From assembly GCA_964405655.1 (NCBI GenBank), contig CAYOOO010000003.1:11758-75757 (forward strand): a stretch of DNA of 64,000 nucleotides, read 5' to 3'. Both the position numbers and the translations under genes were made by a program. A model generated the notes under the pieces. That model searched no databases, had not been told where the DNA came from, and worked only from the letters and a program-made list of their open reading frames with translations. The stretch is from an uncultured Gammaproteobacteria bacterium (GTDB lineage Bacteria; Patescibacteriota; Microgenomatia; Daviesbacterales; UBA10151). Within the stretch, counting starts at the first letter, position 1, and each line of letters begins with the position of its first letter. Shown here one piece after another: positions 51,641 through 61,367 of this stretch.

Positions 51641-52759
51641 GTGAAGGTAACACTGCTTCAGCAGGATTTAATAGCTCCCTTGCAATCAGTTTCTCGCTCA
51701 GTTGGGGTTAAAAGCTCTTTACCGGTTTTAGCAAATATTTTAATCAGAACAGAAGATGGTAACTTAAAATTATCAGCTACCAATTTAGAAGTCGGAGTTA
51801 TCAAAACAGTTAAGGCTCAGGTTATTGAGGAAGGAGAGATAACTGTTCCAGCTAGGACGCTGCTAGAAATAGTCAGCTCATTAACCAGTGCCAAACTGAC
51901 TTTTGAAACCTCCTCAGATCAGCTCAAGATCTCAACTGATAACTTTAATGCAATCCTAAACGGGATCTCAGCCAGTGAATTTCCGACTATCCCGATAGTT
52001 AGTGAAAATACTGTTCATATAGAGGGTCAAATTTTAAAATCAACTATCCCGCAAATTACCTTTGCGGCAGCTAGTGATGAAGGTAGGCCGATTCTAACTG
52101 GTATTCTAACAGAGATAAAAAAAGACAGTTTGGAGCTAGTGGCAACTGATGGTTTTAGATTAGCTCATAAAACAGCCAAGATTGAGGGAGATGCAGACAA
52201 AAACCTTCGCTGCCTGATTCCCCGTCGGACATTTGAGGAAGTGGTTAGGCTAATAGCAGAGGAGATTGGGGAAGAGCAGAAAGAGAAGGTAGAGATCTCA
52301 ATGGCGGACAGTCAAAATCAGATGATCTTTAAGATAGGCCAAACCTTAGTCTCAACACGTTTAATTGAAGGCCAGTTTCCAGCCTGGGAAAAGATCATCC
52401 CAACTAAATTTGAAAATAGAACGATTATTGACAGGACAGAGCTTTTAAAAGCAGTCAAGCTTGCTTCGGTTTTTGCCAAGGGTGATGCTAATATCGTTAA
52501 AATTGCCACATCAGATGGTAAGCTGAAATTAACTTCAGAGGCTAAAGAGTTAGGGGGGCAGGAGAATGAGGTGGAGGCTCAAACAGAGGGGGTAGAACTT
52601 GTTGTTGCTTTTAACTCCAAATTTTTAATAGATGCTTTATCTGCCTGTCAAAGCAGTCAAATTAGAATTGAATTTTCTGGCAGCCTTTCACCAGCACTAA
52701 TTAAGCCTCTGGGAGAAGAGGGTTTGGAGTATGTAGTTATGCCAATCCGCCTAAATTAA
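51641..52759 (+). CDS. dnaN: DNA polymerase III beta sliding clamp (GTG start)
   Basis: Three-domain beta-clamp pattern (MKVTLLQQDLIAPLQSVSRSV...), follows dnaA and the oriC region. Confidence 0.85.
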   Translation: MKVTLLQQDLIAPLQSVSRSVGVKSSLPVLANILIRTEDGNLKLSATNLEVGVIKTVKAQVIEEGEITVPARTLLEIVSSLTSAKLTFETSSDQLKISTDNFNAILNGISASEFPTIPIVSENTVHIEGQILKSTIPQITFAAASDEGRPILTGILTEIKKDSLELVATDGFRLAHKTAKIEGDADKNLRCLIPRRTFEEVVRLIAEEIGEEQKEKVEISMADSQNQMIFKIGQTLVSTRLIEGQFPAWEKIIPTKFENRTIIDRTELLKAVKLASVFAKGDANIVKIATSDGKLKLTSEAKELGGQENEVEAQTEGVELVVAFNSKFLIDALSACQSSQIRIEFSGSLSPALIKPLGEEGLEYVVMPIRLN

Positions 52760-53202
52760 GCACCCCGATATTGAATGGTTTTGAAGTGAAAGATCTTTTC
52801 TACCTCAAGCCTTTTTTTACCATCAAATTTGGTATCAGGCAAGATCTTTAGGGTATAACCCTGACCAAGACTGTAGGGATTAATTGGAGTGATTTTAGCT
52901 GTTTTTCGGTCATCGCTTAACTCAACTTTAATTTTTGCTTCTGGCTCAACCACCAGCTTTAGTTCAGCACTGCCTTCCAGGGGTAGATTAAAACTAACAC
53001 TAATGGTTTGAGTGGGTAAGATTGTGGCATCCTCCAGGGGTGATGGATCAGTTGAGACAACTGCAGTATTTTGGGTGACCTTATCAACAATAGGAGCAGT
53101 TTTAGGTGGGGTATAAAAACCAAATCTAAAAATAGCAATCAAGGCTGCACCAATGATCGCTACTGCAATCATAATCTTTTGTTTTAAAGATAAGTTGGTC
53201 AT
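52756..53202 (-). CDS. Membrane-anchored Ig-like (SbsA/Big-like) small protein, paralog A
   Basis: N-terminal TM helix + about 100-aa beta-rich domain. 4-nt overlap with the upstream paralog. Confidence 0.45.
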   Translation of the reverse strand: MTNLSLKQKIMIAVAIIGAALIAIFRFGFYTPPKTAPIVDKVTQNTAVVSTDPSPLEDATILPTQTISVSFNLPLEGSAELKLVVEPEAKIKVELSDDRKTAKITPINPYSLGQGYTLKILPDTKFDGKKRLEVEKIFHFKTIQYRGA

Positions 53203-53654
53203 GTTCCAGAATAAGGAGCTGTTCTAAAATCCATTATAATATTTTCAGGAATTTTTTCTCCATCGGTTCCTGTTAAAACACCATCAATAGTTAACTTGTA
53301 TTTAGTTTCAAACTTCCAGATCTTTTTAGGGGCTATTTGAATAGTCTGACCATCAGGCTCAAGCATAAGATCGAAATCTGTTTCAGGTTCGATTGATACT
53401 TTAATTGTTCTTTCGTCTACTGGTTTACTAAATTTGAAGGTAATTTTATCAGAGACGTTAACCAAGGATTTGTCAAAGCTTGTACTTGTTACACTAAGAT
53501 TTGTTTGCGGGCTAGTACCAGCAGGCTGTTTAGGAGCAGAGTTTTGTGTATTTTTTGGCAGTAAGGCCTTACTAAATGTAAGCACAATTAACAATATTAA
53601 TAAGACTATTATTAAAATTACAGTCTTAGGGTTTAAATATTTCATTGTGTACAC
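53199..53654 (-). CDS. Membrane-anchored Ig-like small protein, paralog B
   Basis: Same architecture as 52756..53202. 13-nt overlap with the giant hydrolase gene. Confidence 0.45.
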   Translation of the reverse strand: MYTMKYLNPKTVILIIVLLILLIVLTFSKALLPKNTQNSAPKQPAGTSPQTNLSVTSTSFDKSLVNVSDKITFKFSKPVDERTIKVSIEPETDFDLMLEPDGQTIQIAPKKIWKFETKYKLTIDGVLTGTDGEKIPENIIMDFRTAPYSGT

Positions 53655-59336: not shown

Positions 59337-60168
59337 AATCGTCAGGTAGTTCCTCGACTACAAATGGTGAGTTGCTAGTTGGGTATGAGGGTTGTGGCGA
59401 GATAGGACGGGTAGGTGCTGTTGCTTGGGGTATAATAGCTGGTTGATTTTGCACCTGTGTAACAGCCTGGGGTTTTTGCAAGGCCTGAGGAATAGGTGCG
59501 TTAGTAGTTGTTTGTTGCTGATCTTGTTTCATCAGTAGAATTTGGTCGTTAGCAGGCTGGGTTGGTTTAGTCAAGTCTGCCTGCTGAGCGTCTTGAGCGG
59601 TGATGATATTTTGAACAGGACTCCCATTATAAATATCATAAAAAAGCTTAATTAAGTTCTCGGTATTAAGTTGAGCAGCTTTTAATCCAATTCTGCCAAG
59701 TTGTCTAATGATGTGATCTCGTCTGGGTATTAGAATAGTTAAAGCTTTTTGAAAGTGTTTATTAATATCGTTAATGATTCCTAACTCCAAGTAAGAAACA
59801 GTAATTACCACAAAGAACTGTTTATCCAGGACCTCGTTTTCTCTGATAATGGTTTCAACAAAAACCCGATAGCGTTCAATCATCTGTTTCAGAAGAGGAT
59901 TAGCCTGTTTGCTTTGAGCCTTGGCTAAAATCTTTAAGTAGTTTGAGATATCCAGCCTTTTAGAGCGGATTACAATTTGAATTGGGAAAGACAAGGAATT
60001 CAGAAGGGCAGCAAAGGTAGCAATGATTGCCAGCTGTTCATTTTCTGATAATAGGTCAAAGTTGACAGCTGAGGTTTGTAAGATAACAGCCACGCTACCA
60101 TCTTTTAAAACAACCAGATCATTTTTAATCTCTTTGATATTTAAATGCTCTTGAGTAGTATTGCTCAT
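59323..60168 (-). CDS. VirB4 N-terminal domain protein (split from the ATPase ORF; 14-nt overlap), with Q/P-rich C-terminal tail
   Basis: LVVLKDGSVAVILQTSAVNFDLLSENEQLAIIATFAALLNSL...IQIVIRSKRLD resembles the conserved start of Gram-positive-type VirB4 (TraE/TcpF/PrgJ-like). Confidence 0.5.
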   Translation of the reverse strand: MSNTTQEHLNIKEIKNDLVVLKDGSVAVILQTSAVNFDLLSENEQLAIIATFAALLNSLSFPIQIVIRSKRLDISNYLKILAKAQSKQANPLLKQMIERYRVFVETIIRENEVLDKQFFVVITVSYLELGIINDINKHFQKALTILIPRRDHIIRQLGRIGLKAAQLNTENLIKLFYDIYNGSPVQNIITAQDAQQADLTKPTQPANDQILLMKQDQQQTTTNAPIPQALQKPQAVTQVQNQPAIIPQATAPTRPISPQPSYPTSNSPFVVEELPDDYGTV

Positions 60169-61367
60169 ACACTAACCCCCATTTTTTTAGCTGAGATGAT
60201 AACTGGTTTTAAAATTTCTCCTTTTAACTCTACCTCAACAACATCAAACAGTAGGCCGTCTTTTTCAACATTAATAGTATAAGTGCTATTGGGTAGGGGG
60301 GTGGCAGCGATGAACTGACCCAGCTTATTAGTTTTTAAAGCTCGGACTGGCAAGCCCTGTTTATCGTGGGTTACAATAATTGCCTCTTCCAAATAGTTTC
60401 CGTTAGTGTCAGTAATAATTCCATTAATAATATTGGGAGTGGAGGTTAAAACCAGACTAGGTGCAATCTTAGGGGCTGTTTTAATTTGTGGGGTAGGTTG
60501 AGAAGTTGCAGCTGATGATATTACTTGGCTAGGCTGAGTTGTTTTTGAGTAAATAGCCAGTTGTCTAGAGATGTTACTGGCTTGTTGGTTTAGCTGCTGT
60601 AAGTTGTTGATAAGTGATTCAAATTGGCTAATATATTGTTTTGGGTTAGCCCCTGGTTTAGCAGCCTCAGCTTTGATTTGATTTAATTGTTGTTCTGTTT
60701 CAATAATCTTGGTTTGAATAGTTTGGGCTTCTTTGGCCAGCTCCACTGTTTTTTTGAGTTCTTCTGAGCTGGGAAGAGGTTGGTCTTTTTTGATTGGTTC
60801 AGGTTGAGCAACCGGTTGGGTAGGTTGTGGTGGCTTTTGAGTCGGTTGAGGAGCAGGAGATGCAGCACCAAAAAAGGTTGGTTGATTTAAGATTCTTTGG
60901 TTGGAATCAGCGCTGATCATGTTTTGACCACTGTTAAATAAAGGCGAAGCTGGAAAATTGACTGTAGGTTTGGTGACAGCTGCTTGTGTAGCTTCTGCCG
61001 CAACTGGTGGATGGTTTAAAAAGGCCAGAAAAATTTCTAACCTTCTTTTAAACTCTTCAGAATCAGTTTTGATAAATTCTGATTTAAATTTTAGCTGGGT
61101 CGGTCTAAAGATAGCTGCTAAGAAAGCTCCTAACCAGTGATCTAAAGGTCTTTCCCCAATAGGCAAGAAGGCAAAGGCTATGCCAGATAGGGATGAGCTT
61201 AAAATTAATGGCCAGGCAATAAATGGGTAGCTGGTTCCGGCAATCACAAAGACCAAATAAGCAAATACCACTCCAGCAGCCAAATAGCCGAATTGTTTTA
61301 GAGTCATATCACCAACTAGGTGGAACTCAAAGTTAGTGACATTTTGTGGAATAGGGTGAGCTTCCAT
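60165..61367 (-). CDS. VirB3-like two-TM N-terminus fused to coiled-coil and C-terminal CarboxypepD_reg/Ig-like domain
   Basis: N-terminus FEFHLVGDMTLKQFGYLAAGVVFAYLVFVIAG...LPIGERPLDHWLGAFLAAIFRP (VirB3/PrgI-like TM hairpin); C-terminus IITDTNGNYLEEAIIVTHDKQGLPVRALKTNKLGQFIAATPLPNSTYTINVEKDGLLF (CarboxypepD_reg-like). Confidence 0.45.
   Translation of the reverse strand: MEAHPIPQNVTNFEFHLVGDMTLKQFGYLAAGVVFAYLVFVIAGTSYPFIAWPLILSSSLSGIAFAFLPIGERPLDHWLGAFLAAIFRPTQLKFKSEFIKTDSEEFKRRLEIFLAFLNHPPVAAEATQAAVTKPTVNFPASPLFNSGQNMISADSNQRILNQPTFFGAASPAPQPTQKPPQPTQPVAQPEPIKKDQPLPSSEELKKTVELAKEAQTIQTKIIETEQQLNQIKAEAAKPGANPKQYISQFESLINNLQQLNQQASNISRQLAIYSKTTQPSQVISSAATSQPTPQIKTAPKIAPSLVLTSTPNIINGIITDTNGNYLEEAIIVTHDKQGLPVRALKTNKLGQFIAATPLPNSTYTINVEKDGLLFDVVEVELKGEILKPVIISAKKMGVSV

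What the first reader, a model, noticed from the sequence alone, without database searches (positions are those of the whole stretch)
52756..61367. Type IV secretion-like locus 2: VirB3-like::Ig fusion, split VirB4, giant PrgK/VirB1-like cell-wall hydrolase and Ig-like accessory proteins in one overlapping operon
Six - strand genes with 4-14 nt overlaps encode: (i) a VirB3-like two-TM protein fused to a coiled coil and CarboxypepD_reg-like beta domain; (ii) a VirB4 N-domain ORF; (iii) a VirB4 ATPase ORF; (iv) a 1276-aa membrane-anchored hydrolase combining SLT, Amidase_3 and M23-like domains, analogous to PrgK/TraG of Gram-positive conjugation systems; (v, vi) two paralogous membrane-anchored Ig-like proteins. 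Together with locus 1 (VirB2-like x4, VirB6-like) this gives a VirB1/2/3/4/6-type core, but no coupling protein (VirD4) or VirB11 in the window. That pattern is seen for DNA-uptake or pilus systems rather than full conjugative transfer machines. It is a candidate for a poorly described competence or host-attachment apparatus.
Basis: partly seen in the sequence, partly recalled or inferred. Interest (0 to 1): 0.7.

Follow-up and report, generated by a model that had tools for sequence, protein, structure and literature searches.

The report
Patescibacterial type IV secretion core operon
This is the core operon of the type IV secretion-like machine that almost all ultra-small CPR/Patescibacteria carry next to their replication origin. 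The system was described in 2023–2025, so this is a well-annotated new example and not a new kind of system.

Summary
The six minus-strand genes are real and sit at the stated coordinates.
- PrgI/VirB3-like protein with a helical hairpin and a transthyretin-like β-sandwich
- TrsD, which is the VirB4 N-domain
- VirB4 ATPase, above the NCBIfam CD1110 cutoff
- 1276-aa membrane-anchored hydrolase (SLT, Amidase_3, divergent M23-like domain)
- two paralogous Big_5 proteins

One junction is a 49-nt gap, not an overlap.

The contig is from a Candidatus Daviesbacteria MAG. The PrgI–TrsD–VirB4 trio beside dnaN/dnaA recurs in most of 80 related genomes. The cultivated Saccharibacterium S. epibionticum has a matching gene-for-gene locus, and each of its genes is essential for epibiotic growth (Wang 2023). 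Quiñonero-Coronel 2025 describes the system across the phylum.

So this is a new member of a known kind. Three details were absent from the papers I could search:
- the conserved, probably cytoplasmic C-terminal β-sandwich on PrgI
- the hydrolase's exact architecture, including an unassigned Cys-rich domain
- Big_5 proteins as a recurrent final element of the operon

The function (pilus/channel for host interaction) is inferred, not shown.

The parts
60165..61367 (-). PrgI/VirB3-like membrane protein with a long C-terminal extension (400 aa)
   Evidence: Pfam PrgI 1.9e-7, aa 5-92. Identical to the NCBI entry 'PrgI family protein [Ca. Daviesbacteria]'. AF2 model, mean pLDDT 77.
61092..61355 (-). 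PrgI domain with a two-helix TM hairpin (aa 16-43 and 48-66)
   Evidence: K+R counts (N-terminus 0.05, loop 0.18, after TM2 5.1) predict N-in/C-in.
60549..60767 (-). Helical hairpin / coiled coil (aa 201-273)
   Evidence: AF2 helices H201-235 and H242-273, pLDDT above 90. 53% mean identity across 61 homologs.
60183..60437 (-). Transthyretin-like (CarboxypepD_reg) β-sandwich (aa 311-395)
   Evidence: Pfam 7.9e-5, sub-threshold. Foldseek top hits are carboxypeptidase D/N transthyretin-like domains, 4.9e-5, TMt 0.70 to 5aq0. Present in 65 of 69 related loci. 70% mean identity.
59323..60168 (-). TrsD-type protein, i.e. a detached VirB4 N-terminal domain (aa 4-199) with a P/Q-rich tail
   Evidence: NCBIfam TrsD/TraD 3.2e-10; CD1110 model positions 3-185. 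Precomputed PF26593 TraC-like. Fused to VirB4 in L043 and L064.
57522..59336 (-). VirB4-type ATPase, C-terminal two-thirds. Walker A AKSGAGKS at 58527-58550; Walker B LLIVDE at 57915-57932.
   Evidence: NCBIfam conju_CD1110 388.5 bits, above the cutoff of 325. Pfam P-loop_TraG 1.2e-27. PDB 4ag5 1.2e-46. Motifs.
57473..57521 (-). 49-nt intergenic gap between VirB4 and the hydrolase gene
53642..57472 (-). 1276-aa bitopic multidomain peptidoglycan hydrolase (VirB1/PrgK analogue)
56534..57472 (-). Hydrolase N-terminal region (aa 1-280: low complexity, no Cys, predicted cytoplasmic) plus a single TM helix (aa 281-313)
   Evidence: Hydropathy. 0 Cys before the TM versus 24 after it. A long pre-TM region is shared by most positional equivalents.
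55733..56458 (-). Unassigned Cys-rich domain (aa ~339-580) with an invariant W-x-x-E ('YWRSES') motif
   Evidence: 88 cluster representatives in 1.84 billion proteins. Co-occurs only with peptidoglycan-active domains. No PDB or SLT profile match.
55073..55615 (-). SLT lytic transglycosylase domain (aa ~620-800) with a ~60-aa insertion. Motifs RVES, GVMQ and SYYGG are present.
   Evidence: Pfam SLT 28.3 bits, E=1.4e-6, on the isolated segment. Motifs.
54344..55009 (-). Amidase_3 domain (aa ~822-1043)
   Evidence: Pfam 3.1e-18. PDB 4rn7 3.9e-8 with the DPGH/E/SIHAD ligands aligned. The catalytic Glu position may hold a Lys, but that part of the alignment is weak.
53645..54328 (-). Divergent M23/LytM-like domain (aa 1049-1276). 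D, H and HxH are conserved, but the first His of HxxxD is replaced (AKSID).
   Evidence: hhalign against canonical M23: 93.9% probability, E=1.5e-7. Transitive jackhmmer links. Weak PDB profile hits to M23 chains. The AF2 model failed.
53199..53654 (-). Ig1: N-terminally membrane-anchored Big_5 protein. The likely true start is the ATG at 53645 (148 aa).
   Evidence: Pfam Big_5 6.7e-8. TM helix. Alternative gene calls.
52756..53202 (-). Ig2: a paralogous membrane-anchored Big_5 protein. Its stop overlaps the dnaN stop by 4 nt (convergent genes).
   Evidence: Pfam Big_5 2.3e-6. BLASTP against Ig1, E=5e-5. Conserved just before dnaN in 7 Daviesbacteria-like loci.
49584..52759 (+). Context: dnaA, a Holliday-junction-resolvase-like endonuclease and dnaN (chromosomal origin region)
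   Evidence: dnaN/dnaA lie beside the trio in 58 and 57 of 80 loci.
19416..24865 (-). Associated 'locus 1': four VirB2-like pilin genes (24506-24865, 22523-22954, 22037-22441, 21647-22030) and a 741-aa polytopic VirB6 candidate (19416-21641)
   Evidence: Pfam T4SS_pilin 6.8e-8. NCBIfam Mbov_0395 pilin-like, sub-threshold. Multiple hydrophobic segments consistent with about 6-7 TM helices; TrbL only E=3.8.

Best explanation
[quoted passage not shown] That system derives from the MPF_FATA conjugation machinery of monoderm bacteria.

Proposed working model:
1. The PrgI/VirB3-like hairpin anchors the VirB4 motor in the membrane. The motor is made from two polypeptides: TrsD (the N-domain) and the 604-aa ATPase.
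2. The ATPase powers assembly of a pilus or conduit from VirB2-like pilins through a polytopic VirB6-like protein. Both are encoded in two nearby arrays.
3. The bitopic 1276-aa hydrolase opens the peptidoglycan locally, probably through its SLT domain. The amidase and M23-like modules either cut as well or act as regulatory or binding modules, as in PrgK.
4. The two membrane-anchored Big_5 proteins act as wall-spanning scaffolds or adhesive accessories.
5. The machine mediates contact with, and macromolecule exchange with, a host cell.

What is shown: the gene content, domain identities, synteny and homology. What is inferred: assembly, substrate and direction of transport.
For: Identity of the parts.

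The VirB4 is split exactly at CD1110 model position ~185. Natural fusions occur in L043 and L064, and 69 of 80 loci are split.

The 80 best (55-76% identity) include named CPR lineages (Daviesbacteria, Curtissbacteria, Woesebacteria, Levybacteria) and unclassified or oddly titled MAGs. The best hits on non-CPR replicons reach only 36-39%.

The trio is conserved in 73-75 of 80 loci and lies beside dnaN/dnaA in 57-58 of 80.

Pilin arrays and a conserved polytopic protein lie next to the trio in this genome and in others.

Literature:
- Phylum-wide description of VirB4 + TrsD + PrgI + VirB2 arrays near dnaA, without a relaxase (PMC12102498).
- S. epibionticum genes SEML1_0004-0010 form the same series: two small β-sandwich proteins, lysozyme/Cys-protease, a 1113-aa protein with a C-terminal peptidase, VirB4, TrsD and PrgI, next to dnaA-dnaN-recF. 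All score GD/ES/ES in Tn-seq (PMC10633639 supplements).
- PrgK precedent for a TM-anchored three-module hydrolase in which only one module is catalytic (PMC12857230).
Against: - No experiment exists for this lineage, and the substrate and direction of transport are unknown.
- No VirB8-like protein was identified here.
- The VirB6 assignment rests on topology, position and weak similarity only.
- The hydrolase and Ig genes diverge so quickly that only 5 and 7 of 80 loci give tblastn hits. Their membership in the machine is inferred from position, gene coupling and the S. epibionticum parallel.
- The promoter and terminator scans are at chance level, so a single transcript is not demonstrated.
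- The M23-like and amidase modules may be catalytically impaired.
Confidence: 0.85

Rival explanations
1. The hydrolase and the two Big_5 genes are a separate cell-wall remodelling or division module. They merely sit between virB4 and dnaN and are not functional parts of the T4SS.
For: Their sequence and domain content vary greatly between lineages: M23 in 10 of 42, CHAP in 3 of 42, Amidase_3 only here. A 49-nt gap separates virB4 from the hydrolase gene. In L008 a toxin-antitoxin pair (MNT/HepT) is inserted among these genes. Wang et al. define the T4SS as SEML1_0006-0019, which leaves out the two small β-sandwich genes.
Against: A large bitopic protein follows virB4 on the same strand in about 40 of 80 loci. 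VirB1-like hydrolases are standard T4SS operon members, and PrgK has the same build. The S. epibionticum counterparts are all essential together with VirB4. Big_5 proteins recur at this position in 12 of 30 cases.
Confidence: 0.12
2. It is a DNA-uptake (competence) T4SS analogous to H. pylori ComB or the archaeal Ced system, importing host or environmental DNA as a nucleotide source.
For: No relaxase, coupling protein or VirB11 in the window. The ATPase gives a weak sub-threshold hit to CedB, 57 bits against a cutoff of 700. The authors of PMC12102498 propose import of DNA or other macromolecules.
Against: In S. epibionticum, natural transformation needs comEC, which is not essential, while the T4SS is essential. 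The CedB and ComB family thresholds are not met. A 2026 preprint points to host RNA rather than DNA as the acquired material.
Confidence: 0.1
3. It is part, or a decayed remnant, of an integrative conjugative element that transfers DNA between cells.
For: The VirB4 meets NCBI's 'conjugal transfer ATPase, CD1110 family' model. TrsD is known from the conjugative plasmid pGO1. The closest non-CPR relatives lie on large replicons.
Against: The module occupies a fixed chromosomal position next to oriC genes in 57-58 of 80 species. No integrase, relaxase or T4CP is in the window. VirB4 phylogeny indicates vertical inheritance within classes (PMC12102498). GC content is uniform with the flanks.
Confidence: 0.03

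Closest known systems
T4SS of Candidatus Southlakia epibionticum ML1 (SEML1_0004-0019; Wang et al. 2023, PMC10633639)
   Same: Same order and strand logic next to dnaA-dnaN: PrgI family protein, a ~290-aa TrsD-like protein, a ~610-aa VirB4 (4ag6-like), a >1100-aa protein with a C-terminal peptidase domain, further wall hydrolase modules, and two small exported β-sandwich proteins. Pilin arrays and a VirB6-like protein lie upstream.
   Different: - The Se PrgI is 300 aa with only a helical C-terminal part annotated. The window's PrgI adds a transthyretin-like β-sandwich.
- Se spreads its hydrolases over two genes (lysozyme-like x2 + Cys protease; DD-peptidase-like). Here a single 1276-aa protein carries SLT + Amidase_3 + M23-like plus an unassigned domain.
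- The small proteins are PEGA/prealbumin-like in Se and Big_5 here.
- recF is absent here.
- An NTF2/VirB8-like gene is annotated in Se, and none was found here.
Patescibacteria-clade T4SS as surveyed by Quiñonero-Coronel et al. 2025 (PMC12102498)
   Same: VirB4 with MPF_FATA affinity, an adjacent TrsD, PrgI/VirB3, VirB2-like pilin arrays, no relaxase, and proximity to dnaA/dnaN/rnpA.
   Different: That survey reports VirB3 rarely associated with virB4 in Microgenomatia (22.6%), VirB1 rarely near virB4 outside Paceibacteria, and VirB6 scarce in Microgenomatia. In the 80 loci examined here:
- a PrgI-like gene lies directly upstream in 73
- a large, often hydrolase-bearing protein lies directly downstream in about 40
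- a conserved polytopic protein family lies nearby in 28

These components were probably missed there because of sequence divergence.
PrgK of pCF10 (DELTA-class VirB1-like hydrolase) and TraG of pIP501
   Same: Encoded in the T4SS operon. Intracellular N-terminal part, one TM helix, then several extracellular peptidoglycan-hydrolase modules including LytM/M23-like and SLT/muramidase-type domains.
   Different: The module set and order differ: unassigned domain – SLT – Amidase_3 – M23-like here, against LytM – muramidase – CHAP in PrgK. There is no CHAP domain, the N-terminal region is much longer (~280 aa) and of low complexity, and there is no detectable sequence similarity outside the domains.
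pGO1/pSK41 TrsD–TrsE and the CD1110-family cluster on Pontibacillus sp. ALD_SL1 replicon NZ_CP062975.1
   Same: VirB4 encoded as two adjacent genes. The Pontibacillus cluster has pilin-like genes (Mbov_0395 family), a 779-aa polytopic protein, a 116-aa 2-TM protein, TrsD (31% identity), VirB4 (36% identity) and a 1050-aa M23 endopeptidase in the same order.
   Different: The Firmicute VirB3-position protein is small (116 aa) and lacks the helical hairpin and β-sandwich. That cluster lies among chemotaxis and flagellar genes on an 898-kb replicon, not at oriC. No Big_5 pair follows the hydrolase.

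Membership tests
Patescibacteria-clade T4SS (MPF_FATA-derived) | VirB4 ATPase of MPF_FATA type that groups with other Patescibacteria | tested here: met
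   CD1110-family model at 388.5 bits, above the cutoff of 325. 4ag5, 1.2e-46. 55-76% identity to the 80 best genome relatives, which include named CPR lineages, against 39% or less on non-CPR replicons. No tree was built.
Patescibacteria-clade T4SS (MPF_FATA-derived) | TrsD homologue adjacent to virB4 | tested here: met
   NCBIfam TrsD/TraD 3.2e-10. 14-nt overlap with virB4.
Patescibacteria-clade T4SS (MPF_FATA-derived) | PrgI/VirB3 homologue in the cluster | tested here: met
   PF12666 at 31.9 bits, above the gathering score of 27.
Patescibacteria-clade T4SS (MPF_FATA-derived) | VirB2-like pilin array(s) nearby | tested here: met
   Four genes at 21.6-24.9 kb. A second array of four to six genes lies just beyond the window end on the same contig.
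Patescibacteria-clade T4SS (MPF_FATA-derived) | No relaxase or coupling protein in the cluster; chromosomal position near dnaA | tested here: met
   Pfam scans of most window ORFs of 100 aa or more. dnaA and dnaN are adjacent. The rest of the genome was not searched.
Patescibacteria-clade T4SS (MPF_FATA-derived) | Required for epibiotic growth | not testable with these tools
   Known only for S. epibionticum.
Conjugative MPF_FATA T4SS (pCF10, pIP501, pGO1) | Relaxase plus VirD4-type coupling protein, on a mobile element | tested here: not met
   None in the window or in the 7.4 kb beyond it. The module has a fixed oriC-proximal chromosomal location.
Conjugative MPF_FATA T4SS (pCF10, pIP501, pGO1) | VirB8-like (NTF2-fold) subunit | not tested
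   No sequence-level hit. The structures of the small proteins were not predicted. Ig1 and Ig2 match Big_5, not an NTF2 family.
VirB3/PrgI | Two TM helices, gene next to virB4, family profile match | tested here: met
VirB3/PrgI | Small protein (10-15 kDa) with only short cytoplasmic extensions | tested here: not met
   400 aa, with a ~300-aa extension folded into a helical hairpin and a β-sandwich. Definition taken from PMC12857230.
VirB1-like multidomain hydrolase (PrgK/TraG type) | TM anchor plus SLT/muramidase domain with catalytic Glu, encoded in a T4SS operon | tested here: met
   TM helix at aa 281-313. SLT 28.3 bits, with RVES, GVMQ and SYYGG motifs.
VirB1-like multidomain hydrolase (PrgK/TraG type) | Second module of CHAP or LytM type | tested here: met
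   M23/LytM-like by hhalign, 93.9%, but with a non-canonical metal-site motif. No CHAP domain.
Peptidase_M23 (canonical) | HxxxD and HxH zinc-binding motifs; Pfam gathering score | tested here: not met
   No Pfam hit even at E<=10. HxH and D are present, but the first His is replaced (AKSID).
DNA-import T4SS (Ced / ComB) | CedB- or ComB4-type ATPase at family threshold | tested here: not met
   CedB 57 bits against a cutoff of 700.
VirB6/TrbL (for the 741-aa and 568-aa proteins) | Family profile match | tested here: not met
   TrbL E=3.8. The only support is polytopic topology, position after the pilin arrays, mutual similarity at E=3.6e-4, and similarity to the Pontibacillus 779-aa protein at 1e-5.

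The most novel reading that the evidence does not exclude
The ~300-aa extension on the patescibacterial VirB3/PrgI is predicted to sit on the cytoplasmic side of the membrane and is as conserved as the PrgI domain itself. It consists of a flexible P/Q-rich linker, a helical hairpin and a transthyretin-like β-sandwich. The novel reading is that it forms a new cytoplasmic module at the base of the VirB4 motor, one that recruits substrate or regulates the ATPase. It would functionally replace the coupling protein or VirB11 that these systems lack near the operon.
Probability: 0.12. Interest if true: 0.6.

Novelty: new member of a known kind. Interest (0 to 1): 0.3.

Why it matters
The patescibacterial T4SS is the only T4SS known to be essential for its bearer's growth, and it is thought to underlie the parasitic or epibiotic lifestyle of a very large part of bacterial diversity.

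This locus adds no new principle. It does give a clean, complete Microgenomatia example, and it sharpens the parts list in five ways:
- An extended PrgI with a conserved β-sandwich appears to be the norm outside Saccharimonadia.
- A large bitopic protein, often bearing hydrolase domains, follows virB4 in about half of the loci.
- Small membrane-anchored Big_5 proteins recur at the end of the operon.
- There is a candidate for the VirB6 that surveys reported as scarce in Microgenomatia.
- A Firmicute cluster with the same order, pilin-like genes included, bears on where the pilins came from.

These are concrete targets for structural and genetic work in cultivable relatives.

Tried and rejected
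- **Structured RNA or riboswitch in the 338-nt region upstream of PrgI (61368-61705).** The Rfam hits are all below their gathering scores, and the fold z-scores are about -1 on both strands. Rejected.
- **Promoter and terminator scan of the operon.** Counts are at chance level, so it is uninformative.
- **AF2 model of the M23-like domain from a 3-sequence alignment.** pLDDT 31, unusable. The M23-like call therefore rests on hhalign and jackhmmer.
- **Middle domain of the hydrolase.** No Pfam hit, no word-index homologs, no PDB profile hit, and hhalign against SLT gives only 6%. 'Lysozyme-like' remains a motif-level guess.
- **N-terminal 135 aa of the hydrolase.** No Pfam hit, and no relative among the 42 positional equivalents.
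- **The 851-aa and 393-aa divergent genes upstream of PrgI as conserved T4SS partners.** Found in only 1-2 other loci. Rejected.
- **TrsD against the PDB by sequence.** Nothing significant.

Full report
**Observation**

The six minus-strand ORFs are exactly where the finding says. The junctions are as follows:
- PrgI/TrsD: 4-nt overlap.
- TrsD/VirB4: 14-nt overlap.
- VirB4/hydrolase: 49-nt gap (57473-57521).
- Hydrolase/Ig1: 13-nt overlap with the GTG start. It becomes an ATGA 4-nt overlap if Ig1 starts at the ATG at 53645. One public gene call uses that start, and it keeps the N-terminal TM helix.
- Ig1/Ig2: 4-nt overlap.

Ig2's stop overlaps the stop of convergent dnaN by 4 nt. Consensus promoter and terminator scans are at chance level. 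A single transcript is therefore plausible from gene coupling but has not been demonstrated.

**Gene identities**

1. **The 400-aa protein (PrgI fusion).**
   - It matches Pfam PrgI above the gathering score (aa 5-92, E=1.9e-7) and CarboxypepD_reg below it.
   - An AlphaFold2 model built on 62 homologs (mean pLDDT 77) shows a TM hairpin (aa 16-66), two short helices and a disordered P/Q-rich linker. It also shows a long helical hairpin (aa 201-273) and a β-sandwich (aa 315-394, pLDDT above 90).
   - Foldseek places the β-sandwich with the transthyretin-like domains of carboxypeptidases D, N and M and with CnaB-type domains.

2. **The 281-aa protein (TrsD).** It matches NCBIfam TrsD/TraD (3.2e-10) and positions 3-185 of the CD1110 VirB4 model.

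3. **The 604-aa protein (VirB4 ATPase).**
   - It matches positions 185-733 of the same CD1110 model at 388.5 bits, above the curated cutoff of 325.
   - It has intact Walker A and Walker B motifs.
   - It matches the Thermoanaerobacter VirB4 structure 4ag5 at 1.2e-46.
   - The two genes together therefore make one VirB4. In 80 related loci the two parts are separate in 69 and fused into one 814-834-aa protein in 2.

4. **The 1276-aa protein (hydrolase).**
   - It has one TM helix (aa 281-313), no cysteine before it and 24 after it. This indicates an N-in/C-out bitopic protein.
   - Outside the membrane it carries, in order, four domains.
     - An unassigned Cys-rich domain.
     - An SLT domain: 28.3 bits when scanned alone, with RVES, GVMQ and SYYGG motifs.
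     - An Amidase_3 domain: 3e-18. The three zinc ligands align to solved amidases. The catalytic Glu position may hold a Lys, but that part of the alignment is weak.
     - A C-terminal domain that Pfam does not recognise.
   - The C-terminal domain matches a canonical M23 alignment at 93.9% probability by hhalign (E=1.5e-7). The D, the central H and the HxH motif are aligned, but the first His of HxxxD is replaced.
   - The AF2 model of the C-terminal domain failed.

5. **The two small proteins (Ig1, Ig2).** Both are N-terminally membrane-anchored Big_5 proteins and paralogs of each other.

**Organism and context**

- The PrgI protein is identical to an NCBI entry from a Candidatus Daviesbacteria MAG. 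The contig is JACOXF010000005.1 of GCA_016176395.1.
- The operon ends against dnaN. dnaA, rnpA, yidC and jag lie nearby, so this is the chromosomal origin region.
- No VirD4-, VirB11- or relaxase-type protein appears among the window ORFs scanned.
- Locus 1 (19.4-24.9 kb) holds four VirB2-like pilin genes and a polytopic 741-aa protein.
- Just beyond the window's right end, on the operon strand, the contig carries a second array of four T4SS_pilin genes. There are also two longer proteins with pilin-like C-termini, a 173-aa protein and a polytopic 568-aa protein.
- Two non-conserved opposite-strand genes (851 and 393 aa) separate that array from PrgI.
- The 568-aa protein is weakly similar to the 741-aa protein (E=3.6e-4). 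It has homologs upstream of the trio in 28 of 80 loci.

**Comparative evidence**

The 80 best are mostly Microgenomates-type CPR MAGs.
- In those 80 loci, VirB4C is accompanied by TrsD in 75, by PrgI in 73, and by dnaN/dnaA in 58 and 57.
- The PrgI N-domain and the C-terminal β-sandwich are both present in at least 60 of 69 upstream ORFs, while the linker varies.
- Across 61 homologs, the β-sandwich is as conserved as the PrgI domain (70% versus 67% identity to the window protein). The segment after TM2 is strongly positive (5.1 K+R, against 0.18 in the loop). This predicts N-in/C-in, as in canonical VirB3 (definition in PMC12857230).
- A large protein follows virB4 on the same strand in about 40 loci, usually with a 250-640-aa low-complexity region before a single TM helix.
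- The hydrolase modules of that protein vary: M23 in 10 of 42, CHAP in 3 of 42, and Amidase_3 + SLT only here.
- In the closest relative (L001), CHAP, Amidase_2, PEGA and two Big_5 proteins are separate genes.
- Small proteins at the end of the operon match Big_5 in 12 of 30 cases.
- The unassigned middle domain has only 88 cluster representatives in 1.84 billion proteins. It is always embedded in proteins that carry other peptidoglycan-active domains. It has an invariant W-x-x-E motif and conserved cysteines, but no match to solved structures or to SLT.

**What is already known**

- Quiñonero-Coronel et al. 2025 (PMC12102498) surveyed 3,035 Patescibacteria genomes. They describe a monophyletic VirB4 clade nested in MPF_FATA, widespread TrsD, PrgI/VirB3 and VirB2-like pilin arrays, near absence of relaxases, and proximity to dnaA/dnaN/rnpA. 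They propose a co-opted, non-conjugative function.
- Wang et al. 2023 (PMC10633639) showed by Tn-seq that the S. epibionticum T4SS is essential for epibiotic growth.
- Their supplementary tables show a gene-for-gene parallel to this window. Next to dnaA-dnaN-recF lie two small β-sandwich proteins (prealbumin-like; PEGA/Ig-like), a lysozyme/Cys-protease protein and a 1113-aa protein with a C-terminal peptidase domain. VirB4, a ~290-aa protein and a 300-aa PrgI-family protein follow. All score GD/ES/ES.
- A 2025 review treats these systems as the notable newcomers of the superfamily (PMC12857230).
- A 2026 preprint reports tubular structures at a parasite-host interface and host-RNA feeding.

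**What may be new in detail**

The papers I could search do not mention the CarboxypepD_reg-like domain on PrgI, Big_5 proteins or Amidase domains in this context. The held library is incomplete, so this is weak evidence of novelty.

The 2025 survey reported three things for Microgenomatia: VirB3 rarely linked to virB4, VirB1 rarely near virB4, and VirB6 scarce. The synteny analysis here suggests that divergent versions of all three are present near virB4 in at least a substantial fraction of those loci.

A Pontibacillus replicon carries pilin-like genes, a polytopic protein, a 116-aa 2-TM protein, TrsD, CD1110 VirB4 and a 1050-aa M23 endopeptidase in the same order. This shows two things:
- The whole layout, pilin-like genes included, exists in a Firmicute.
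- The long PrgI extension is specific to the CPR proteins.

**Mechanism (inferred)**

1. PrgI anchors the two-piece VirB4 motor.
2. The motor drives assembly of a VirB2-type pilus or conduit through the polytopic protein.
3. The bitopic hydrolase opens the wall locally. Its SLT domain looks catalytically intact, while the M23-like and perhaps the amidase modules may be binding or regulatory modules, as in PrgK.
4. The Big_5 proteins act as wall-spanning accessories.

The substrate and the direction of transport are unknown.

**Verdict**

- Observation: confirmed.
- Interpretation: supported.
- Novelty: new member of a known kind.
- Interest: modest.

Noticed in passing
L081 1-5891 (same contig, beyond window position 64000; window 64000 = L081 7368): A second T4SS pilin array on the operon strand. 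It has four T4SS_pilin genes (117, 237, 131 and 129 aa) and two longer proteins (>441 and 295 aa) whose C-termini are pilin-like. The 295-aa protein has what looks by eye like an FN3-type N-terminal region. A 173-aa protein and a polytopic 568-aa protein follow.
   Followed up: partly
L081 4185-5891 and window 19416-21641: The 568-aa and 741-aa polytopic proteins each follow a pilin array and are weakly similar to each other (E=3.6e-4). The 568-aa family occurs upstream of PrgI-TrsD-VirB4 in 28 of 80 loci and resembles the protein in the VirB6 position of a Pontibacillus cluster. It is a candidate for the VirB6 reported as scarce in Microgenomatia.
   Followed up: partly
window 61706-62887 (+) and 62925-64000 (+, continues beyond the window): Two genes transcribed divergently from the operon. 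One is a 393-aa protein with a Cys-rich C-terminus (CxxC-type motifs). The other is a highly charged 851-aa protein with no TM helix. Neither has a Pfam hit, and they are conserved in only 1-2 related loci.
   Followed up: partly
window 51171-51635 (+): A 154-aa archaeal-Holliday-junction-resolvase-like endonuclease (PF10107) sits between dnaA and dnaN. It is conserved at that position in 8 Daviesbacteria-like loci.
   Followed up: no
L085 (Pontibacillus sp. ALD_SL1 NZ_CP062975.1, 351-361 kb): A Firmicute replicon typed as non-mobilizable carries a T4SS-like cluster with the same gene order as the CPR system, pilin-like genes included. It is embedded between chemotaxis and flagellar genes.
   Followed up: partly
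L003, L005, L010, L016, L019-L022 and many others: Many TPA_asm 'binchicken' MAG records titled 'uncultured Gammaproteobacteria' or 'Pseudomonadales' carry this CPR-type locus at 55-75% identity. Their taxonomic titles are probably wrong.
   Followed up: no
L008 14068-14890: A nucleotidyltransferase/HepT toxin-antitoxin pair is inserted between the hydrolase gene and the terminal Big_5 gene in a related Daviesbacteria locus.
   Followed up: no
window 40768-43722 (-): A 984-aa protein that combines an N-terminal epimerase/dehydratase fragment with DUF4012. It lies next to Wzy-like and polysaccharide-flippase-like genes, which suggests a surface-polysaccharide locus.
   Followed up: no
window 13084-14802: Further cell-wall genes elsewhere in the window: a PEGA+SH3 protein (13084-13908, -) and a canonical Peptidase_M23 protein (14056-14802, +). 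The latter was used here as an M23 reference.
   Followed up: no
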